DNA of 62,484 bases, taken from the NCBI GenBank assembly GCA_030647655.1, contig JAUSJH010000018.1:1-62484 (forward strand), read 5' to 3'. The position numbers were made by a program, and so were the translations under genes. Below the pieces are notes generated by a model. The model searched no databases and was not told the DNA's origin. It saw nothing but the letters and a program-made list of their open reading frames with translations. How positions within the stretch are numbered: position 1 is the stretch's first letter; each line of letters opens with the position of its first letter. Shown here piece by piece: positions 8,080 to 58,826 of the stretch. Source of the DNA: a bacterium (GTDB lineage Bacteria; Patescibacteriota; Minisyncoccia; Phycocordibacterales; UBA2100).

Positions 8080-8541
8080 TTATGCGGCCGGCGTCTCCAC
8101 AACATCAGGCGTTTTCTTTTCTACCACTGGCTCCTCTGGTTTTGCCTCTTCGGCAGGAACTTCTGCGGGCGTCTCTGCGGGAGCTACAACTTCTTCCTTC
8201 TTCGCCTCGCCAGAGCCTTCCTCGCCCGTAGTAGCTTTAGCAGAGTCGGGGGCGACGGCGGGTGCTGGTTCTTTGTATTTCGGAAGTACGTTTATCTTCT
8301 TCGCATTCAAAATGCCGAGCGAGACAAGCATATTGTGCACCGTGTCCGACGGCTTGGCGCCTACCGACATCCAATATTTGATGCGTTCGGCATTGAGTAC
8401 GCGCTCCTTGGTCTTGGGGTTGTAGGTGCCGACTTTCTCTACGACGTTGCCTGTCTTGGGACCCTCAGTGTGTTCCACTACGACAATGCGATATGAAGGC
8501 GTATTTATGCGCCCCGTCCTTTGCATTCGTATCTTCAACAT
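8080..8541 (-). CDS. rpsP: 30S ribosomal protein S16 with acidic Pro/Ala/Glu-rich C-terminal extension
   Basis: MLKIRMQRTGR...YRIVV...GTYNP...ERIKYWMSVGAKPSDTV. Confidence 0.96.
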   Translation of the reverse strand: MLKIRMQRTGRINTPSYRIVVVEHTEGPKTGNVVEKVGTYNPKTKERVLNAERIKYWMSVGAKPSDTVHNMLVSLGILNAKKINVLPKYKEPAPAVAPDSAKATTGEEGSGEAKKEEVVAPAETPAEVPAEEAKPEEPVVEKKTPDVVETPAA

Positions 8542-8554
8542 ATGTCGCGACACT

Positions 8555-8660
8555 GTACCCCATGAGATAAAAATAGTCCAGTTTATTTACCCTGACATTC
8601 AGGTACGTGCGGCGCGCTACTTTGTTCAATATTCGGAATGACTTATCTCACGGGGTGTAC
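8555..8660. mobile_element. ~106-bp inverted-repeat-bounded element (copy A)
   Basis: Arms gtaccccatgagataa (8555-8570) and ttatctcacggggtgtac (8643-8660); same arms as element at 31794-31900. Confidence 0.6.
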
Positions 8661-8674
8661 CAGATAACTATATA

Positions 8675-8709
8675 AAATCAACGGCCGGCGCCCCGCAGTG
8701 GGCGCCGGC
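8675..8709 (-). terminator. putative intrinsic terminator
   Basis: 10-bp GC stem gccggcgccc/gggcgccggc (8684-8709) followed on minus strand by a weak T-rich tract. Confidence 0.5.
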
Positions 8710-8722
8710 ACATGACACGTTG

Positions 8723-9004
8723 TCAGCCGTGCGAAAAGCGGTCGTCAGGCAACGAAGGGTCGGAGGCCCCGAGCTCCGGCCGATCCGGAAACGGAAACTG
8801 ATCCGCAGGCCGTTCGACTTTTTCGAAGTCCTCCGCCGGCAACCAGCCACCGTAGCCGATGTGCAGTCCTGCCAACAAGACCTTCCAGCCGTCTCTGCCG
8901 AGCATCACCGCGTCAACGGTGTAGTTATCTCGAACCGGCATATGGACGCCCGCCTTCGGACGCACTTGGTCGTCGGGGTCGAATGGTACTCTCTGACCCT
9001 CCAT
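8723..9004 (-). CDS. small hypothetical protein, possible SH3/KOW-like beta-barrel
   Basis: MEGQRVPFDPDDQVRPK...YTVDAV...WKVLLAG...WLPAEDFEKV pattern resembles small SH3-like barrels; purine-rich SD-like (AAGG) upstream; fold call is inference. Confidence 0.5.
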   Translation of the reverse strand: MEGQRVPFDPDDQVRPKAGVHMPVRDNYTVDAVMLGRDGWKVLLAGLHIGYGGWLPAEDFEKVERPADQFPFPDRPELGASDPSLPDDRFSHG

Positions 9005-9082
9005 GACACCTTCTCTCGCTCGGCGAACATGCGACGCATGTTCTCCCAACCGAGCTTCCGACGACACTCTACGCTTCGTATG

Positions 9083-11308
9083 TTATTTGGCAACCTTTTC
9101 CGCCTCCTCTAATTTCACCGACAACAACTTTGATACGCCGTCCTGCCCCATGGTGACGCCATAAAGCTCGCCGGCGGCGGACATGGTCGCCCTATTGTGG
9201 GTGATGACGATGAGTTGTGATTTTGCCCCAAGTTCTTTTATCATGTCGGCGTAGCGCTTTGAGTTGGCTTCGTCGAGCGCGGCGTCGGTCTCATCAAGAA
9301 TTAAAAACGGTGGGGGATTCACTTGGCTCATAGAAAAGATGAGTGCGATGGATGTAAGCGCACGCTCGCCGCCCGAGAGCACTTCGAGCCCGCGGATTTT
9401 CTTTCTCGGGAGCGAGACATCAATAGAAAGACCGGCATATAACTCTTCTTCTTCATCAATCCCTTCTTCGCCATCGTCATCCTCCTCACTTTCCGTGTCA
9501 AGGACGGTCCTTGACACGCGGCGGCGGGGCTCCTCGACCTCGAGCTTGGCGTAACCACCCCCGAACAATTTATTGAAGAAGCCTTTGAGCGCTTCGTTGA
9601 TGTGCTTTAGCCCTTCGGTGAATCGAGCGTCAATGGTCTTTTCCAGCTCGGCAATGATGTCCTCGAGTTTCCCAGCCGAAGATTCGAGGTCGGCGAGTTC
9701 CCTCGCAAGAAATTCTTCGCGCTCTTTAGTCTGTTTGAATTCCCGCACGACGGCATCCCCGCTCCCCACCCCCGATTCCTCTATTTTTATCTTCAAGCGC
9801 TCGATATCGCGGCGGCGCTTATCTTGTCGTTTCCTATCTTCCTCGAGAAGTGCACCTTCCGGCACTCCTGCCTTCTCCCAACCATGCACCGCTTCTCCGA
9901 TGAGTGCGATGCCTTCCCGCACTTCTTCCTCGAATCGCGCGCGCAAAATCGCGAGTGCGGTGCGTGCGCTCGAAACGGCGCCGAGTTTGGCTTGCGCCTC
10001 ACGCACCTGTCCCTCCAATTCCACCAAGTCGCGCTCGGCAGTGAATCCTGCCTCGCGCGCTTCCGCAATTTTCTTGCGTAGTGTTTCCAGCTCACCCGCG
10101 AGCGCCGTTTCCTCTTTGCGCACGCGCTCAAGTGAATTCGCGAGCGAATTCACTTGCTGGCGCACTTCTTCGTTGGTCTCGGGTGCCGAGCCGGAAAGCC
10201 CGTCGACAAAAGCCTTGATGCGCTCACGAATCTGTCCGAGACGGCTTTTGAGCTTCACTATATCGGTCTCCCGCTCGGCTTCTGCGACAGTCAGAGAAAG
10301 CTCGCGCGCGAAGCTACGCACATGCGGCACGGGGACTATCTGCTCCACAGTGATGGTGTTGGCCTCGAGTGCTCCTTCGGCGCGTCCGAGCTCTCGGGTG
10401 AGTTTTTCACTCTCGCGACGCGCCTCCGATAGTTTCCCTTCCCGCTCCGACAACTTCTTTTGCAACTCTTGCAGGGCGCCTTGCCCCGCCGAAGCTTTTG
10501 CCGAACGGGTTTGCGAGACCGATTCGTTTAACTTTTTCAACTCGTGCACTTGTGCCTGTTCTTCTTGGCGAAGCCGTGCGTCTTCCTGCGTAATCCACGC
10601 GTTCTCGCGCGCGAGGTAGTCACTCAATTTCACAGCAAGCTCTTCCTTCATCTCACGGGCTTTCTCTATCTTTTCCACCTGCACGCGCAAGAAATTGATG
10701 TGCGGCGCGAGCTCGCGCCGGAGCGATTTTGTCTTATCGATATTATTCCCTGTCTCCTCGAGTTTGCGCTTGCTCTCCGCTTTCTTGTGCTGGTAGAGCT
10801 TCAGGCCGAGCGCGTCTTCCACCATCTCTCTGCGCTCGCGCGGGTGCGCATTCAATATCCTGTCCGCCTCACCTTGCGAAATTATCTGATAGCCCGAGCC
10901 GCCGATATTCGCTCCAGCGAGGAGGCGGGTGACGTCTTTGAGCCGCACCTGCGTGCCGTTCAACAAATACTCATTTTGCCCGTCGCGATAGACGACACGT
11001 TCCACCGTGACCTCCTTGAAGTCCAAATCCAAGAGGCGTTTTGAATTATCAAAAACCACTTTCACCCCCGCGCGATTCATGCGCGGCAAGGAAGGCGAGC
11101 CGCCCCAGATGAGGTCTTCGCCGCGCTTGCTTCTCATGGATTTCATCGATTGCTCGCCCAAGACGAAACGGAACGCCTCCGCGACATTGGACTTGCCCGA
11201 GCCATTCGGCCCGACAGCGGCGGTGATAGGGGACCCGAATACGAGCTCGGTCTTTTTGCCGAACGACTTGAATCCAGACAGTTCTATTGATTTCAAACTA
11301 AGAAACAT
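9083..11308 (-). CDS. smc: short SMC-family ATPase (no recognisable hinge)
   Basis: Walker A GPNGSGKSN, Q-loop IISQG, signature LSGGE, Walker B/D-loop LDETDAALD, VITH; central coiled coil; downstream of rnc. Confidence 0.88.
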   Translation of the reverse strand: MFLSLKSIELSGFKSFGKKTELVFGSPITAAVGPNGSGKSNVAEAFRFVLGEQSMKSMRSKRGEDLIWGGSPSLPRMNRAGVKVVFDNSKRLLDLDFKEVTVERVVYRDGQNEYLLNGTQVRLKDVTRLLAGANIGGSGYQIISQGEADRILNAHPRERREMVEDALGLKLYQHKKAESKRKLEETGNNIDKTKSLRRELAPHINFLRVQVEKIEKAREMKEELAVKLSDYLARENAWITQEDARLRQEEQAQVHELKKLNESVSQTRSAKASAGQGALQELQKKLSEREGKLSEARRESEKLTRELGRAEGALEANTITVEQIVPVPHVRSFARELSLTVAEAERETDIVKLKSRLGQIRERIKAFVDGLSGSAPETNEEVRQQVNSLANSLERVRKEETALAGELETLRKKIAEAREAGFTAERDLVELEGQVREAQAKLGAVSSARTALAILRARFEEEVREGIALIGEAVHGWEKAGVPEGALLEEDRKRQDKRRRDIERLKIKIEESGVGSGDAVVREFKQTKEREEFLARELADLESSAGKLEDIIAELEKTIDARFTEGLKHINEALKGFFNKLFGGGYAKLEVEEPRRRVSRTVLDTESEEDDDGEEGIDEEEELYAGLSIDVSLPRKKIRGLEVLSGGERALTSIALIFSMSQVNPPPFLILDETDAALDEANSKRYADMIKELGAKSQLIVITHNRATMSAAGELYGVTMGQDGVSKLLSVKLEEAEKVAK

Positions 11309-26340: not shown

Positions 26341-26384
26341 CAAAAAGGCGCCCCACGTTTTGTCGAGGGGCGGCCTTTTGTTTT
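26341..26384. terminator. probable bidirectional terminator
   Basis: aaaaggcgcccc...ggggcggcctttt between convergent genes. Confidence 0.6.
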
Positions 26385-28500
26385 AGACGTCGAGTGTCGC
26401 CTCCCTCGCGTGGCTTTGAATGAATGACTTACGCGCGGGGACGTCGGTGCCCATGAGCATGTCGAAGACCATGTCGGCTTCCTGCGCGTCCTCGATGGCG
26501 ACCTGCTTCAATATGCGGCGTGCAGGGTCCATTGTCGTTTCCCACAATTCTTCAGAATTCATCTCGCCCAAGCCTTTGTAGCGTTGAACAGAGACTTTTG
26601 CGGTTTTCCCGACGCTCCGACCTTCATCGGAAGTCGGGACCCCGACTTCGACTTCGTCGAGCGTCGGGGCTTCCAGCGGCATATCCTTGCCCACGAGCCT
26701 GATGCGTTCCTCGTCGGAATATGCATAGTGAATTTCTTTTCCTTTGCGCACCTTAAAAAGCGGCGGCTGGGCGATGTAGAGATATCCGCCGTCTATTACC
26801 GGTCGGAAGTGGCGGTACATGAGCGTGAGGAGAAGTGTGCGAATGTGCGCGCCATCCACGTCGGCATCGGTCGCAATGATTATTTTGTGATAGCGCAACT
26901 TCGCGACATCGAAAATATCGCCTATCGCAGTCCCGAGCGCGACAACAAGATTACGTATCTGCTCGGAGGCGAGCATCTTGTCGAGGCGTGCGCGTTCGAT
27001 GTTGAGTATCTTGCCGCGCAGAGGAAGCACGGCCTGTATGCGACGGTCGCGGCCCATCTTTGCAGTGCCGCCGGCCGAATCACCTTCTACGATAAAGAGC
27101 TCCGATTCTTCCGCGCTTTTGCTCTGGCAATCGGCGAGTTTACCGGGAAGCGTCATGCCATCCAAGGCGCCCTTGCGCAAAATGCTGTCTTTGGCGGCTT
27201 TGGCGGCTTTGCGCGCCTTCATCGCGAGCGCTATTTTCCCCAGAATAGCGCGCGCGTCGTCGGGATGCCCTTCGAGGAACGTGCTGAATGCTTCGGCAAA
27301 GACGCTATCGGTCGCACCACGCGCCTCGACACTTCCGAGTTTCGACTTGGTTTGGCCTTCGAATTGCACTTCGCGCATTTTGACCGAAATAACCGCCGTA
27401 AGACCTTCCAAGACGTCGTCGCCGGTAAAGGTATCGCTCTCCTTGCCGCCATTCCCATTTTTTATCTGTGAATTCAAGGTGCGCGTAAGTGCGCCCTTGA
27501 ATCCTGTCACGTGCATGCCGCCTTCGGCGTTGTAGATGTTGTTGGCAAAAGCCGAAAGACGTGAGGTGATATCGTCTACATACTGCAGAGCGATTTCCAC
27601 CGAGACACCGTCTTGTTCTTTCTCGATGTGGAAAATATTCTTATGGATCGGTTCGAGATAGCGGTTTTGGAATGCGACAAGAGAGCGTAAGCCTCCTTCA
27701 AAATAGAACGATGTCGAGGGGGCATCGAGCCCAAGTTCACGCAAATAAAATACGTCTGCCCCGTTAGAGCGCGAAGTGTCTCTAATGGGGTCTTTGTCCA
27801 CCTTTCTGAAATCCAGGATAGAAATACGCAGTCCCCGAACAAGGTACGCCTGCTGGCGCATGTGCGCGACGATGGTATCGGAGTGGAGCTCGCGGTCGGG
27901 GAAAATCTTGGCATCGGCCTCGAAAGTAATTATAGTCCCGTGCAGTTTTGAAGAATCGATTTTCTTCGTTTTGCCGATAGGCTTGCCGCCGTCTTTGTAT
28001 TCCTGCATATATTTTCCCCCATCGCGATACACCTCTGCACGCACATGCGAGGAGAGTGCGTTGACGACCGAGACGCCTACGCCGTGCAATCCGCCCGATA
28101 TCTTGTATCCTTCGCCACCGAATTTCCCTCCGGCATGGAGCTTGGTCATTACCGTCTCGAGCGTTGAGACTTTTGTCTTGGGATGTATTTCCACAGGGAT
28201 ACCGCGACCGTTGTCGGCGACGCGTACGCGATTGTCCGGCAGAAGGGCTATCTCGATATCATCCGCAAACCCGCCCATCGCCTCGTCGCGCGAGTTGTCG
28301 AAGACTTCCCAGACGAGATGATGGAGTCCCGAGGTACCGGTCGTCCCGATATACATACCGGGACGGCGTCGCACCGCCTCCAACCCCTCGAGAACGGTAA
28401 TGTCGCTCGCTCCGTAAGAAGAAGTCCCTACTTTAGGGCTCTTTACCTTCCCTCCGGAGGAGGGTCCGCCTCCGGCGGATTTCGCCTTCTTTTTAGCCAT
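26383..28500 (-). CDS. gyrB: DNA gyrase subunit B
   Basis: VRRRPGMYIG, DNGRGIP, GGLHGVGVSVVNALS, EGDSAGG, PLRGKILN, DADVDGAHI, QRYKGLGEM. Confidence 0.95.
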   Translation of the reverse strand: MAKKKAKSAGGGPSSGGKVKSPKVGTSSYGASDITVLEGLEAVRRRPGMYIGTTGTSGLHHLVWEVFDNSRDEAMGGFADDIEIALLPDNRVRVADNGRGIPVEIHPKTKVSTLETVMTKLHAGGKFGGEGYKISGGLHGVGVSVVNALSSHVRAEVYRDGGKYMQEYKDGGKPIGKTKKIDSSKLHGTIITFEADAKIFPDRELHSDTIVAHMRQQAYLVRGLRISILDFRKVDKDPIRDTSRSNGADVFYLRELGLDAPSTSFYFEGGLRSLVAFQNRYLEPIHKNIFHIEKEQDGVSVEIALQYVDDITSRLSAFANNIYNAEGGMHVTGFKGALTRTLNSQIKNGNGGKESDTFTGDDVLEGLTAVISVKMREVQFEGQTKSKLGSVEARGATDSVFAEAFSTFLEGHPDDARAILGKIALAMKARKAAKAAKDSILRKGALDGMTLPGKLADCQSKSAEESELFIVEGDSAGGTAKMGRDRRIQAVLPLRGKILNIERARLDKMLASEQIRNLVVALGTAIGDIFDVAKLRYHKIIIATDADVDGAHIRTLLLTLMYRHFRPVIDGGYLYIAQPPLFKVRKGKEIHYAYSDEERIRLVGKDMPLEAPTLDEVEVGVPTSDEGRSVGKTAKVSVQRYKGLGEMNSEELWETTMDPARRILKQVAIEDAQEADMVFDMLMGTDVPARKSFIQSHAREATLDV
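26608..26646. repeat. palindromic element translated in frame within gyrB
   Basis: cccgacgctccgac...gtcgggaccccgac; encodes VGVPTSDEGRSVG; related copy at 54635-54659. Confidence 0.6.
28451..28479. repeat. palindromic element in gyrB N-terminal extension
   Basis: cctccggagg plus tccgcc-tcc-ggcgga; related tccgcc-agct-ggcgga at 25101-25116 in the sortase. Confidence 0.55.
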
Positions 28501-28609
28501 ATTTGATTGATTGAGTATAGCAAAAAACAAGCTGTTTGCCTAGACCCAAAAGGTGGGTATAGTGGGTATGGACCGACAATGAAGTCGGCTGAAAAAGTGA
28601 GGAAGCGCG

Positions 28610-30770: not shown

Positions 30771-31031
30771 TCAGCCCGTTAGAGATAGAAAACGCTTGAG
30801 ACGATTCTTTATGTACCGCTTCCCCATACCAGTTTTTAAATACTTCTCGCGCGTATATGCGTCAGACTGCTCCCTGCACGCCTCGTAGTACATCAGTTCG
30901 AACGGATGTCGTTTGGCCGTGGCAACCATTTGACCGCCGTTATGTTGTCTCAGGCGTTTTCGTAGATCGTTTGTACACCCGGTATACCATTTACCATCAA
31001 CTTTGCTTCGGAGTACGTAGGTGTAGTGCAT
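30771..31031 (-). CDS. GIY-YIG nuclease family protein
   Basis: YTYVLRS...WYTGCTNDLRKRLRQHN...YYEAC...AYTREKYLK. Confidence 0.92.
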   Translation of the reverse strand: MHYTYVLRSKVDGKWYTGCTNDLRKRLRQHNGGQMVATAKRHPFELMYYEACREQSDAYTREKYLKTGMGKRYIKNRLKRFLSLTG

Positions 31032-31050
31032 AAAGAATCTCTAACGGGCT
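30773..31050. mobile_element. GIY-YIG cassette bounded by perfect 14-bp inverted repeats, between pheS and pheT
   Basis: agcccgttagagat (30773-30786) / atctctaacgggct (31037-31050). Confidence 0.7.
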
Positions 31051-31786
31051 AAAACTGATTGATGAACCGCAAATCGGCGGAATGCATAAGACGGATGTCG
31101 TCGATGCCCCAACGCAGAAGCGCGAGACGGTCGAGCCCCATGCCGAAGGCAAAGCCCTGATACTTTTTCGGGTCGACGCCCGCGTTCTTGAGCACATCCG
31201 GATGCACCATGCCCGCACCCATCATTTCTATCCACCGGTCTTTCAGCTTTTCCGGAACATTCGCGCCAACGAGCCGCATATCCACTTCGACCGACGGCTC
31301 GGTGAATGGAAAGAAGCTCGGACGGAACCGTATCTCGACTGACGCGCCTTTAAACAACTCTTTGAGAAATCGTTCGAGCGTTCCTTTGAGATTTGCGAGT
31401 GTTACATCCTCACCCACGGCAAGCCCTTCTATCTGAAAAAATTCCGCTTCGTGCGTCATGTCGGTCGCCTCGTTGCGGAAGACTTTGCCTGGCACAATGA
31501 CACGGTACGGTGGCACAATGCCCTTCTTCATCTGCGTCTCCATGTAGCGCACCTGGACGGGAGAAGTGTGTGTGCGCAGTACGTAACCCGGCTCATCTTT
31601 GATGAAAAAAGTGTCCTGCATGTCGCGCGCGGGATGGTCCTTGGGGACATTGAGGGCGTCGAAATTGTGCCATTCGTCTTCGAGAAGCGGGCCTTCCGCG
31701 CAAGTAAAGCCCATGCGATAAAATATCTGATTCGCCTCGCGGATGAGGGATGAAATAGGGTGAATGTGCCCTCGTGTTTTCTCCAT
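31049..31786 (-). CDS. pheS: phenylalanine--tRNA ligase alpha subunit, short form (no N-terminal coiled-coil arm)
   Basis: GHIHP, NFDALNVPKDHPARDMQDTF, LRTHTSPVQ, RFRPSFFPFTEPS, GFAFGMGLDRL. Confidence 0.96.
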   Translation of the reverse strand: MEKTRGHIHPISSLIREANQIFYRMGFTCAEGPLLEDEWHNFDALNVPKDHPARDMQDTFFIKDEPGYVLRTHTSPVQVRYMETQMKKGIVPPYRVIVPGKVFRNEATDMTHEAEFFQIEGLAVGEDVTLANLKGTLERFLKELFKGASVEIRFRPSFFPFTEPSVEVDMRLVGANVPEKLKDRWIEMMGAGMVHPDVLKNAGVDPKKYQGFAFGMGLDRLALLRWGIDDIRLMHSADLRFINQF

Positions 31787-31793
31787 ACACGAC

Positions 31794-31900
31794 AGTATAC
31801 CCCATGAGATAATAATTCTAATTTTCCGAGAAAATCTCTCCGCAGCAATCACCTAGACAGTCGAAGATACTTTAAAACTGCTTATCTCACGGGGTATACT
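31794..31900. mobile_element. ~107-bp inverted-repeat-bounded element (copy B)
   Basis: agtataccccatgagataa (31794-31812) / ttatctcacggggtatact (31882-31900), 18/19 complementary. Confidence 0.65.
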
Positions 31901-58323: not shown

Positions 58324-58539
58324 CTAGTCCTTGAAAATATAGTTACAGGAAAGCCTTGTATCGCGCATTATTTTCCGAAGTAATCCTGGACCTATCACGT
58401 CATGTAACGGCACAGTTGTCGGCGACAGTGTCGGATGTTTGAGCCGAACATGGCTACCTGTTGTGCGAACTTGAACATATCCGACTCGTTCAAGTCGCTT
58501 GATAATCTGCGCACCCGATATGCGCGGAATATGCGGCAT
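58324..58539 (-). CDS. hicA: HicA-family toxin
   Basis: ISGAQIIKRLERVGY.QVRTTGSHVRLKH...TTVPLH...GLLRKI. Confidence 0.88.
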   Translation of the reverse strand: MPHIPRISGAQIIKRLERVGYVQVRTTGSHVRLKHPTLSPTTVPLHDVIGPGLLRKIMRDTRLSCNYIFKD

Positions 58540-58542
58540 ATA

Positions 58543-58773
58543 CTAAACAGTAATGACGTGTACGCTCACGCTTGACGCAGTCCCAGCAACATCTTCCGTC
58601 TTCTGCTCCGCAAGGCACGCCTCCGTCGCTTCGCGCACGTTCAGAAGTGCCTCCTCCATGTTTTTGCCTTGACTATAGCAACCAGGGATTGCGGGATTCG
58701 TAGCAACAAAGAAGCCCCCATCGTCTTTCTCAACGATGATTGGAAATGATTGTGTGCTACGGATTCCTTTCAT
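58543..58773 (-). CDS. hicB: HicB-family antitoxin (short, no DNA-binding domain)
   Basis: IIVEKDDGGFFV..PAIPGCYSQGKNMEEALLNVREA. Confidence 0.88.
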   Translation of the reverse strand: MKGIRSTQSFPIIVEKDDGGFFVATNPAIPGCYSQGKNMEEALLNVREATEACLAEQKTEDVAGTASSVSVHVITV

Positions 58774-58826
58774 GATGGCAGTATACCCCCGCGAGATAAT
58801 AGTTTCAATGCACCACATTATATACG

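What the first reader, a model, noticed from the sequence alone, without database searches (positions are those of the whole stretch)
8555..8660. IR-bounded ~106-bp element whose arm supplies the -10 box of essential genes (copies at rpsP, pheS, hicB)
Two elements (8555-8660, 31794-31900) share near-identical terminal arms (ACCCCATGAGATAA / TTATCTCACGGGGT) and the same total length, but have unrelated ~70-bp cores. Both have the same A/C mismatch, which is a G:T wobble on the minus strand. A solo arm (agtatacccccgcgagataa) lies at 58780-58799. In all three places the arm reads outward as TTATCTC..GGGG-TA(T/C)A(C/G)T, 6-10 nt before an ATG (rpsP, pheS, hicB). This suggests a non-autonomous mobile element or recombination site that delivers near-leaderless promoters and has been domesticated by core genes.
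Basis: partly seen in the sequence, partly recalled or inferred. Interest (0 to 1): 0.72.

Follow-up and report, generated by a model that had tools for sequence, protein, structure and literature searches.

The report
Tiny mobile elements in promoter boxes
The two ~100-base inverted-repeat stretches are gene-less copies of a tiny mobile DNA family of ultra-small (CPR) bacteria. The family lands in the TATA of promoter -10 boxes, and its full-length ~280-bp relatives carry only a miniature GIY-YIG nuclease gene, so it may be a new kind of transposon.

Summary
Five copies of TTATCTCRYGGGG lie in the window (0.26 expected): two inverted pairs upstream of rpsP and pheS, and one degenerate solo arm upstream of hicB.

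The arms are not peculiar to this genome. They recur almost letter for letter in about 50 Patescibacteria assemblies, usually as inverted pairs with cores of 33-39, 68-77 or about 255 nt.

Several results show a mobile element with terminal inverted repeats:
- The pairs are flanked by 4-bp direct repeats (TATA; also TACA/TGTA, TCTA, TTTA).
- Abutting copies share exactly 4 nt.
- Related copies sit in unrelated flanks.
- Close relatives carry the same -10 box and ATG with no arms.

So the -10 box is the duplicated target, not something the arm supplies.

The ~255-nt class encodes an 80-86-aa single-domain GIY-YIG nuclease. Six of six such genes examined are bracketed by these same arms. The window holds a sister element with variant arms, inserted exactly between pheS and pheT.

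Best reading: these are non-autonomous copies, probably mobilised in trans by that nuclease, and tolerated because insertion rebuilds the leaderless promoter.

The parts
8554..8557 (.). Element 1, left 4-bp direct repeat TGTA (target-site duplication). On the minus strand it is the TACA of the rpsP -10 hexamer TACAGT (8557-8552).
   Evidence: Sequence. A relative in run X4 is identical up to 8557 and diverges exactly at the GGGG|TACA boundary.
8558..8570 (.). Element 1, gene-proximal arm (terminal inverted repeat): CCCCATGAGATAA, which reads TTATCTCATGGGG on the minus strand. It occupies about -25 to -13 of the rpsP promoter.
8571..8642 (.). Element 1 core, 72 nt, in the 68-77-nt size class. 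It is unrelated to other cores. Its rpsP-side end carries a weak -35-like TGGACT 17 nt from the -10.
8643..8655 (.). Element 1, distal arm TTATCTCACGGGG
8656..8659 (.). Element 1, right 4-bp direct repeat TGTA. The outward hexamer TGTACC lacks the final T of a -10 box, so it is probably not a promoter.
8539..8541 (-). rpsP start codon, 10 nt after TACAGT (near-leaderless)
   Evidence: Ribosomal_S16
31796..31799 (.). Element 2, left 4-bp direct repeat TATA. On the minus strand it is the first four bases of the pheS -10 hexamer TATACT (31799-31794).
   Evidence: Empty-site relatives L120-L130 have TATACT followed by 6-9 nt and the ATG, without arms.
31800..31812 (.). Element 2, gene-proximal arm CCCCATGAGATAA
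31813..31881 (.). Element 2 core, 69 nt
31882..31894 (.). Element 2, distal arm TTATCTCACGGGG
31895..31898 (.). Element 2, right 4-bp direct repeat TATA. It overlaps the stop codon region of the upstream 272-aa gene. With the next two bases it forms TATACT, a promoter-like site that faces antisense into that gene.
31784..31786 (-). pheS start codon, 7 nt after TATACT (leaderless spacing)
   Evidence: tRNA-synt_2d
58786..58799 (.). Degenerate solo arm CCCCCGCGAGATAA upstream of hicB. The -10 TATACT is at 58785-58780 and the ATG at 58773. No intact partner was found.
   Evidence: HicB_lk_antitox; HicA_toxin next door
30774..31049 (-). Sister element of the same superfamily: a 276-bp unit carrying only an 86-aa GIY-YIG nuclease gene (30774-31031). 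It lies between 13-nt inverted arms GCCCGTTAGAGAT (31049-31037) and ATCTCTAACGGGC (30786-30774), inserted exactly between the pheS stop and the pheT ATG.
   Evidence: relatives have pheS-TAA-AT-ATG-pheT; PF01541, E 2.7e-17

Best explanation
Elements 1 and 2 are gene-less (non-autonomous) copies of a family of very small transposon-like elements that is spread across the Paceibacteria-type CPR bacteria.

A copy consists of two 13-nt terminal inverted repeats (CCCCRTGAGATAA ... TTATCTCAYGGGG) around a core of free sequence but fixed length (about 35 or about 72 nt). It is flanked by a 4-bp target-site duplication of the form TANA/TNTA, usually TATA.

Full-length members (about 280 bp) have the same arms around a single gene for an 80-86-aa, single-domain GIY-YIG nuclease. 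That nuclease is the most likely enzyme that recognises the arms and moves both kinds of copy. The arms may be read as the stem they form in single-stranded DNA, as shown for the Ssn nucleases.

The copies seen today sit in the TANA of pre-existing -10 hexamers of leaderless promoters. There the duplication rebuilds TANANT on the gene side, so the gene keeps its promoter. The arm then becomes the promoter's spacer (-25 to -13), and the adjoining core end is shaped into a weak -35 (TTGAA).

How firm each step is:
- Shown by sequence comparison: the arms, the duplication, the empty sites, the paralogous copies, and the nuclease genes inside identical arms.
- Inferred: that the nuclease is the mobilising enzyme, that it acts on single-stranded DNA, and that the hexamers are used as promoters.
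For: They come overwhelmingly from about 50 Patescibacteria assemblies; the ~19 hits in other phyla are single copies without a partner.

**2. Partner arms sit at fixed distances.** Of 151 strict arms, 115 have an inverted partner. Core lengths fall into 33-39 nt (57 pairs), 68-77 nt (44) and 253-256 nt (3).

**3. Target-site duplication.**
- 67 of 102 pairs have TATA on both sides.
- Among pairs with other flanks, 7 are direct repeats (TACA, TGTA, TCTA, TTTA, including window element 1) against 0.31 expected.
- Only 1 is an inverted repeat, against 0.35 expected.
- Abutting elements share exactly 4 nt in 10 of 12 cases.

**4. Empty sites.**
- Thirteen PheS relatives (73-91% identical) have TATACT, then 6-9 nt, then the ATG, with no arms. 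There are no arms anywhere in 363 kb of PheS-related loci.
- Relatives in runs X1 and X4 join the smc stop to rpsP through 26 and 11 nt. The X4 form is identical through TACAGTGTCGCGACATATG and breaks exactly at GGGG|TACA.

**5. Mobility.**
- L023/L079 and L041/L077 are pairs from the same genome on different contigs. Their cores are 88-89% alike, and homology stops at the TATA.
- L001/L050 have related cores in unrelated flanks in two different genomes.

**6. Promoter context.**
- The ATG lies 6-8 nt after the hexamer in 46 of 82 arms with an ORF start within 25 nt.
- 50 of 52 gene-proximal hexamers end in T, whereas distal hexamers often end in C or A. These are the reverse complements of the GG/GC that normally precede a -10.
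- A TTGAA signal at 17-bp spacing is clear at proximal core ends and much weaker at distal ends.
- The downstream genes are unrelated housekeeping genes.

**7. The nuclease.**
- The ~255-nt cores of L053 and L102 encode a GIY-YIG protein.
- Four further homologues fetched by protein identity (L211, L214, L215, L223) are all bracketed by the canonical arms.
- At least 12 of the 86-aa homologues end in LSHGV*, which is the translation of TATCTCACGGGGTA.
- About 100 of 120 homologues of the window's own protein end in FLSLTG*, the translation of the variant arm TATCTCTAACGGG. That variant arm brackets the gene in three phyla.
- Protein subfamily and arm type change together, and the catalytic-type residues Y3, Y5, G18, R26, H30 and E50 are invariant.
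- Genomes with gene-less copies also hold a nuclease copy with the same arms: CAMTYD01 (L102), CALREG01 (L053) and VMGC01 (P0179).

**8. Published analogue.** Ssn single-domain GIY-YIG nucleases bind and cut single-stranded DNA at hairpin repeats that also flank their own genes (PMC11893778).
Against: - No transposition event, no cleavage and no transcript has been observed.
- Most cores within one genome are unrelated, including the two in this window. Yet both arms are nearly always intact (partner arms are either 0-1 mismatch or absent), and the window holds no excess of decayed arms. Ordinary MITE families look different. This pattern could mean selection on the arms in place.
- At the orthologous rpsL site of two Kaiserbacteria, the arms are 35/36 identical while most of the core cannot be aligned.
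- The fixed core lengths are unexplained.
- Hydrolytic GIY-YIG nucleases are not known to act as transposases.
- The variant-arm elements show no clear duplication. Two of six canonical-arm nuclease copies lack TATA flanks.
The only copy in the window has the variant arms.
Confidence: 0.68

Rival explanations
1. Host promoter/operator module. The 13-19-nt sequence is the binding site of a conserved host protein: a regulator, an unusual sigma domain or a polymerase-associated factor. It is used in inverted pairs at fixed distances, for example for looping or insulation, and it evolved in place at each promoter.
For: - The arms are conserved almost letter for letter across a class.
- Spacing is quantised.
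- Partner arms are either intact or absent, with no decayed copies.
- The arms are conserved at the orthologous rpsL site while the core diverged.
- The proximal arm always lies at -25 to -13.
Against: - The flanks are direct repeats, not inverted ones, which a symmetric binding site does not predict.
- Copies with related cores sit in unrelated flanks.
- Close relatives run the same genes from the same -10 without arms.
- Identical arms bracket a nuclease gene whose C-terminus they encode.
- The downstream genes form no regulon.
- Distal arms mostly lack a usable -10 or -35.
Confidence: 0.1
2. Domesticated Ssn-like system. The arms are hairpin-forming repeats kept by the host and cut in single-stranded DNA by the small GIY-YIG nuclease for a cellular purpose, such as limiting incoming or single-stranded DNA, as proposed for NTS/SsnA in Neisseria. 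The copies are spread only occasionally, and the nuclease is not a transposase in the usual sense.
For: - Published biochemistry of Ssn nucleases and their repeats, with the same repeat-gene-repeat layout.
- One nuclease copy sits at a conserved place, next to or inside the RNase P RNA gene and beside a TPR gene, in distant Parcubacteria. This suggests long vertical residence.
- The arms are maintained in place.
- Pairs are C/C or C/T at arm position 9 and almost never T/T (1 against 12 expected), which points to a sequence-specific reader.
Against: - This reading does not explain the 4-bp duplications, the exact siting in -10 boxes, or the fixed core lengths.
- Membership of the Ssn clade (cd10448) could not be tested. 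The nearest solved relatives are UPF0213 proteins.
- It is compatible with the best explanation rather than exclusive of it.
Confidence: 0.15
3. A conventional DDE transposase encoded elsewhere moves the arms. A 4-bp duplication and CCC...GGG ends would fit an IS1380/piggyBac-like or IS5/IS701-like enzyme. On this reading the GIY-YIG gene is only cargo or a nested homing gene.
For: A 4-bp target duplication and short terminal inverted repeats are classic features of DDE transposition (own knowledge of the IS families). GIY-YIG nucleases have no known strand-transfer activity.
Against: - No pair of arms 0.5-6 kb apart enclosing a larger gene was found in 118 loci.
- The nuclease gene is built into the arms: its start lies 8-10 nt after one arm and its stop lies in or beside the other. 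Its subfamily co-varies with arm type.
Confidence: 0.07

Closest known systems
Correia elements (CREE/NEMIS) of Neisseria, and bacterial MITEs in general
   Same: Like them, these are roughly 100-bp elements with terminal inverted repeats and a short TA-containing target duplication. They come in discrete size classes, sit just upstream of genes, and form promoter -10 sequences at the junction with the flank (own knowledge of Correia elements; features tested here).
   Different: - The arms are unrelated in sequence.
- The cores are not conserved between copies.
- The family spans a whole class of bacteria, not one genus.
- The target is the -10 box itself.
- The partner element encodes a GIY-YIG nuclease, not a DDE transposase.
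Ssn single-domain GIY-YIG single-stranded-DNA nucleases with NTS/SRM hairpin repeats (Chenal et al. 2025, PMC11893778)
   Same: Both have a nuclease of about 90 aa that consists of the GIY-YIG domain alone. In both, the gene is bracketed by the same repeat that is dispersed through the genome, enzyme and repeat co-vary, and the authors themselves note the likeness to an insertion sequence.
   Different: - The Ssn repeats are ~30-nt self-contained hairpins. Here the two arms are separated by 35, 72 or 255 nt.
- Target duplications, gene-less two-armed copies and -10-box siting are not described for Ssn.
- Membership of cd10448 was not testable here. The nearest solved structures are UPF0213 proteins.
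REPIN-RAYT systems (REP doublets with an IS200/IS605-type Y1 transposase)
   Same: Both are short inverted-repeat doublets dispersed in intergenic DNA. Both have a single small enzyme gene flanked by the same repeats, and both persist for a long time in a lineage (own knowledge; the analogy is also drawn in PMC11893778).
   Different: The enzyme here is a GIY-YIG nuclease, not an HUH/Y1 enzyme. REPINs have no target duplication and are species-specific in sequence.
IS200/IS605 'peel and paste' elements
   Same: Both depend on hairpin-forming ends, insert next to a specific tetranucleotide, and are very small.
   Different: In IS200/IS605 the target tetranucleotide sits on one side only and is not duplicated. 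The transposase is HUH, and the elements exceed 600 bp.

Membership tests
MITE (non-autonomous element with terminal inverted repeats) | Terminal inverted repeats | tested here: met
   The arms are 13 nt, with one mismatch in both window elements. The same arms occur in 102 pairs elsewhere.
MITE (non-autonomous element with terminal inverted repeats) | Target-site duplication (direct repeat) flanking the element | tested here: met
   The repeat is 4 bp. There are 7 non-palindromic direct matches against 0.31 expected, and 1 inverted match. Abutting copies share exactly 4 nt.
MITE (non-autonomous element with terminal inverted repeats) | Empty-site alleles in relatives | tested here: met
   Empty sites were found at pheS and at rpsP. 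At rpsP the left boundary is blurred by an extra inserted gene.
MITE (non-autonomous element with terminal inverted repeats) | Copies within a genome share internal sequence | tested here: not met
   Only 2 of about 16 genomes with two or more sampled copies show related cores. The window's two cores are at background similarity.
MITE (non-autonomous element with terminal inverted repeats) | An autonomous partner with the same ends | tested here: inconclusive
   Units of about 280 bp with identical arms carry a GIY-YIG gene. That this gene moves them is not shown. Presence of such a unit in this genome was not testable.
Ssn / SRM system (cd10448) | Single-domain GIY-YIG protein of about 90 aa | tested here: met
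   The proteins match PF01541 only and are 80-86 aa long. The catalytic-type residues are invariant.
Ssn / SRM system (cd10448) | Gene flanked on both sides by the dispersed repeat | tested here: met
Ssn / SRM system (cd10448) | Falls in the cd10448 clade; cuts single-stranded DNA at the repeat | not testable with these tools
   No CDD library and no SsnA sequence were at hand. The best matches among solved structures are the UPF0213 proteins 1zg2 and 1ywl.
REPIN-RAYT / IS200-IS605 | HUH (Y1) transposase associated with the repeats | tested here: not met
   The only gene found between the arms is a GIY-YIG gene. No larger arm-bounded unit exists in 118 loci.
Sigma-70-type promoter giving a leaderless mRNA | A TANNNT hexamer 6-8 nt before the start codon, with a -35 at about 17 bp | tested here: met
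   In the window the -35s are weak, and the consensus scan does not call the rpsP or pheS promoters.
Sigma-70-type promoter giving a leaderless mRNA | Mapped transcription start at or next to the ATG | not testable with these tools
   No RNA runs hold these sequences.
Palindromic operator of a global regulator (e.g. RDRM/DdrO type) | Symmetric site, a coherent regulon, and origin in place | tested here: not met
   The flanks are direct repeats, not inverted ones. The downstream genes are unrelated. Copies have moved between loci.

The most novel reading that the evidence does not exclude
An 80-86-residue protein that consists only of a GIY-YIG nuclease domain is by itself the 'transposase' of a new mechanistic class of DNA transposon.

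The class would comprise ~280-bp autonomous units, possibly the smallest self-contained mobile elements of cells, and 64- and 101-bp gene-less copies.

The enzyme would read the two arms as a stem in single-stranded DNA and insert with a 4-nt stagger at TANA. It would find its targets in -10 boxes because these are the places where RNA polymerase melts the DNA.

The ~72-nt class would be dimers of the ~35-nt class that have lost the central arm-TATA-arm hairpin (72.2 against 2 x 35.5 nt).
Probability: 0.35. Interest if true: 0.9.

Novelty: new variant of a known kind. Interest (0 to 1): 0.74.

Why it matters
Three things would follow if the reading holds.

- **A new way of moving DNA.** No known transposase family would be involved, and the element is small enough (about 280 bp) to be rebuilt and tested easily.
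- **How selfish DNA survives in tiny genomes.** In a 0.9-Mb, gene-dense genome it would persist by landing where the insertion repairs what it breaks, namely the -10 box of leaderless promoters.
- **A warning for annotation.** The most conserved 'promoter motif' of a whole class of uncultured bacteria would be an insertion scar and not a regulatory signal.

The nuclease/arm pairs could also extend the toolbox of sequence-specific single-stranded-DNA nucleases opened by the Ssn family.

Tried and rejected
- **Whole-genome census.** Copy number and the nuclease inventory of this genome are therefore unknown.
- **Transcription start mapping.** No RNA run holds the window, L038 or L031.
- **Strain-level presence/absence.** Look-ups by exact protein for PheS and S16 returned only the sample the window was assembled from.
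- **Rfam.** Nothing lies at the elements; the window holds only tRNA-Thr. The idea that the plus arm of element 1 drives an SRP-like RNA was dropped: the hairpin there is the terminator of the inserted 93-aa gene.
- **G:T wobble marking the transcribed strand.** Rejected: the T-type arm is gene-proximal in 23 pairs and distal in 17.
- **Cores as internal-deletion remnants of the nuclease gene.** There is no similarity beyond chance 8-10-mers.
- **A conserved motif at the centre of the 72-nt cores.** None was found.
- **Decayed arms in the window.** Seven weak matches against 5.3 expected.
- **DnaA box, attC-type, Xer-type or invertase-type recombination sites.** Considered from the 28-nt palindrome formed by abutting arms. 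Not pursued, because the 4-bp direct repeats and isolated half-sites fit staggered-cut insertion better.
- **A literature search for this motif or element in CPR bacteria.** Nothing was found.

Full report
**Observation**

The motif TTATCTCRYGGGG occurs five times in the 62-kb window against 0.26 expected. Four copies form two inverted pairs. The fifth, upstream of hicB, is a degenerate solo arm.

Read base by base:
- Element 1: TGTA | CCCCATGAGATAA | 72-nt core | TTATCTCACGGGG | TGTA (8554-8659).
- Element 2: TATA | CCCCATGAGATAA | 69-nt core | TTATCTCACGGGG | TATA (31796-31898).

The two cores are no more alike than chance (0.61 in a global alignment).

On the minus strand the proximal arms are followed by:
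- TACAGT, 10 nt, then the ATG of rpsP;
- TATACT, 7 nt, then the ATG of pheS;
- TATACT, 6 nt, then the ATG of hicB (solo arm).

The distal arms face no gene. The distal arm of element 1 points at the intrinsic terminator of an upstream 93-aa gene. The distal arm of element 2 overlaps the end of the upstream 272-aa gene.

**The arms are not peculiar to this genome**

I scanned one genome per prokaryotic species for TTATCTCAYGGGGTAYA. About 100 of them come from roughly 50 Patescibacteria assemblies: Kaiserbacteria, Nomurabacteria, Campbellbacteria, Ryanbacteria, 'Paceibacterota', and MAGs labelled Saccharibacteria. The ~19 hits in other phyla are single copies without a partner, as chance predicts.

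- Of 151 strict arms, 115 have an inverted partner upstream.
- Core lengths fall into three sharp classes: 33-39 nt (57 pairs), 68-77 nt (44 pairs, including both window elements) and 253-256 nt (3).
- Where an ORF follows, its start lies mostly 6-8 nt after the hexamer.
- The genes are of every kind: pyrophosphatase, L25, the clamp-loader subunit, DHFR, RNase H, deformylase, enolase, YchF, RRF, RuvC.

This is not a regulon.

**Insertion or home-grown promoter?**

Four results decide for insertion.

*First, the flanks.* In 67 of 102 pairs both flanks are TATA, which is a palindrome and therefore uninformative. Among the rest, seven pairs carry the same non-palindromic tetranucleotide on both sides in direct orientation (TACA, TGTA, TCTA, TTTA). 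Only 0.31 such pairs are expected from the marginal frequencies. Only one pair is inverted, against 0.35 expected. Window element 1, TGTA...TGTA, is one of the seven. A symmetric protein-binding site predicts inverted flanks. A staggered cut at the target predicts direct ones.

*Second, abutting elements.* They share exactly four bases between GGGG and CCCC in 10 of 12 cases. This is expected if a second copy lands in the duplicated TATA of the first.

*Third, empty sites.*
- Thirteen loci whose PheS is 73-91% identical to the window's have TATACT, 6-9 nt and the ATG, but no arms. There are no arms anywhere in 363 kb of PheS-related loci.
- Contigs of relatives in two groundwater runs join the smc stop codon to rpsP through only 26 or 11 nt.
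- One of these relatives is identical to the window through TACAGTGTCGCGACATATG and diverges exactly between GGGG and TACA.

*Fourth, copies have moved.*
- In assembly DATDVZ01, L023 and L079 are two copies with 89% identical cores on different contigs.
- In assembly CAYPGH01, L041 and L077 are a two-unit array present on two contigs.
- L001 and L050 share a core family in two different genomes.

In each case homology ends at the TATA and the flanks are unrelated.

**What this means for the -10 box**

The arm does not supply it. The hexamer is there in relatives without the element, and its first four bases are what is duplicated.

This also explains the distal hexamers. Proximal hexamers end in T in 50 of 52 cases (TATACT, TATAAT, TATAGT). 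Distal ones are often TATACC, TATAGC or TATATC, which are the reverse complements of the GG, GC or GA that normally precede a -10 box in these genomes.

After insertion the arm occupies -25 to -13. The adjoining core end shows a TTGAA signal at 17-bp spacing that is clear on the gene side (0.46-0.48 bits) and much weaker on the far side. The cores have therefore been shaped into -35 regions where that matters.

About a dozen other leaderless-type promoters in the window have no arms.

**The partner element**

The ~255-nt 'cores' of L053 and L102 are not cores. They encode a GIY-YIG protein.

That protein is homologous (52% and 47% identity) to the 86-aa ORF at 30774-31031 of the window, which matches PF01541 at E 2.7e-17. 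The window ORF sits exactly between the pheS stop and the pheT start. It is bracketed by the 13-nt inverted repeat GCCCGTTAGAGAT / ATCTCTAACGGGC. Relatives have pheS-TAA-AT-ATG-pheT at that place.

The variant arm differs from the arms of the finding mainly by two extra bases: TATCTC-TA-ACGGG against TATCTC-AYGGGG.

The two homologue searches returned about 2,600 and 1,700 proteins respectively, almost all 80-86 aa long.
- About 100 of the 120 closest relatives of the window protein end in FLSLTG*, the translation of the variant arm.
- The variant arm brackets the gene in Patescibacteria, Elusimicrobiota and Omnitrophota.
- In the other subfamily, at least 12 of the 86-aa proteins end in LSHGV*, the translation of TATCTCACGGGGTA.
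- All four members of that subfamily whose DNA I fetched (L211, L214, L215, L223), together with L053 and L102, are bracketed by exactly the arms of the finding. The ATG lies 8-10 nt inside one arm, and the stop lies in or next to the other.

Protein subfamily and arm type thus change together, and Y3, Y5, G18, R26, H30 and E50 are invariant.

Three assemblies with gene-less copies (CAMTYD01, CALREG01, VMGC01) also hold such a nuclease unit. In L102 the nuclease unit itself sits in the -10 box of the leaderless ychF gene.

**Most likely mechanism**

The published Ssn family gives a precedent. Those are single-domain GIY-YIG proteins of about 94 aa that bind and cut single-stranded DNA at hairpin repeats, and the repeats also flank their own genes. 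The authors remark that the layout is that of an insertion sequence (PMC11893778).

Here the two arms can pair as a 13-19-bp stem in single-stranded DNA.

I therefore propose that the small nuclease recognises the arms, cuts at the arm/TANA boundary, and mobilises both its own ~280-bp unit and the gene-less 64- and 101-bp copies. Copies survive mainly in -10 boxes because that is where insertion is harmless.

| Claim | My odds |
|---|---|
| Mobile element with a 4-bp duplication in -10 boxes | about 0.85 |
| The GIY-YIG nuclease is the mover | about 0.55 |
| It acts on single-stranded DNA | lower, and inferred only |

**What does not fit neatly**

- Cores within a genome are mostly unrelated, yet partner arms are either intact (36 of 52 with 0-1 mismatch) or absent (13). 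Few are intermediate.
- At the orthologous rpsL site of two Kaiserbacteria the arms are 35/36 identical while most of the core cannot be aligned.
- The arms are therefore maintained, either by selection in place or by the enzyme.
- Core lengths are quantised without any conserved sequence. The means are 35.5 and 72.2 nt, so the longer class is close to twice the shorter. That would fit dimers that lost the central arm-TATA-arm hairpin, but no central motif supports this.
- At arm position 9, pairs are C/C (33) or C/T (67) and almost never T/T (1 against 12 expected). It suggests that at least one arm must read CCCCGTG. It shows no bias towards the gene side.

**Rivals**

- A host operator or sigma-site module explains the conservation and the spacing. 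It does not explain the direct-repeat flanks, the moved copies, the empty sites or the nuclease genes. I give it about 0.1.
- A domesticated Ssn-like repeat system with a cellular role is compatible with most of the data and with the best explanation (about 0.15).
- A DDE transposase encoded elsewhere, with the nuclease as cargo, is unlikely given how the gene is built into the arms (about 0.07).

**Limits**

- No RNA data exist for any of the sequences tried.
- Nothing here shows cleavage, transposition or transcription directly.
- Earlier notes of this scan on other genomes reached similar and also conflicting readings. I reached the duplication idea and the nuclease link before reading them. 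I took from them only the pointer to the Ssn paper.

Noticed in passing
window 30774-31049: A 276-bp unit carries only an 86-aa GIY-YIG nuclease gene between 13-nt inverted arms (GCCCGTTAGAGAT / ATCTCTAACGGGC). It is inserted exactly between the pheS stop and the pheT ATG. Twelve close relatives of PheS lack it; a 94%-identical copy sits in the same slot in other Kaiserbacteria.
   Followed up: yes
window 8684-9070: Between smc and element 1 lies an extra 93-aa gene of unknown family (8726-9004, no Pfam hit) with its own intrinsic terminator (8684-9709 region; stem 8684-8709). It is absent from relatives in runs X1 and X4. It is preceded by TAGAGTGTCG (9070-9061), a near copy of the rpsP promoter core TACAGTGTCG (8557-8548). 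The cassette seems to have entered with a duplication of the rpsP promoter.
   Followed up: partly
window 27759-27790: A 32-nt mini hairpin made of the variant arms, CCCCGTTAGAG-9 nt-TCTCTAATGGGG, again with a G/A (G-T) difference. It lies inside the 719-aa ORF 26383-28539 (minus strand).
   Followed up: no
L228 460-1175 and L214 370-825: In distant Parcubacteria a canonical-arm GIY-YIG unit sits at a conserved place, beside a divergent ~800-aa TPR gene. Its right arm runs straight into GAGGAAAGTCCG of the RNase P RNA (RF00010, E 2e-15, below the gathering score). The layout suggests the unit lies in the P3 stem-loop of the RNA, with the arms acting as the P3 stem.
   Followed up: partly
102 arm pairs in L001-L118 and the window: At arm position 9 (TATCTCA[C/T]GGGG), pairs are C/C (33) or C/T (67), but T/T only once against 12 expected. 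Both window elements are C/T.
   Followed up: partly
window 31871-31900 (+): The distal arm of element 2, together with its flank, makes a promoter-like site (TTAAAA-17-TATACT, 9/12). It points antisense into the 3' end of the upstream 272-aa gene.
   Followed up: no
L124 about 2330-2490: In a PheS relative the same intergenic slot upstream of pheS holds a different inverted-repeat element, with arms GGTACCCAAGGACTAAGGG about 100 nt apart. L122 has a simple hairpin there. This gene junction seems to collect palindromic inserts.
   Followed up: no
L064 2700-3300: Thirteen arms lie within 600 bp at the end of a 243-kb contig of an uncultured bacterium: a dense nest of abutting and overlapping copies. 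L108, L041 and L077 show tandem arrays with periods of 67 and 101 bp.
   Followed up: partly
window 58327-58773: A HicA toxin / HicB-like antitoxin pair lies directly downstream of the degenerate solo arm. Upstream lies a 1217-aa surface-type protein with a long Pro/Ala/Glu-rich C-terminal region.
   Followed up: partly
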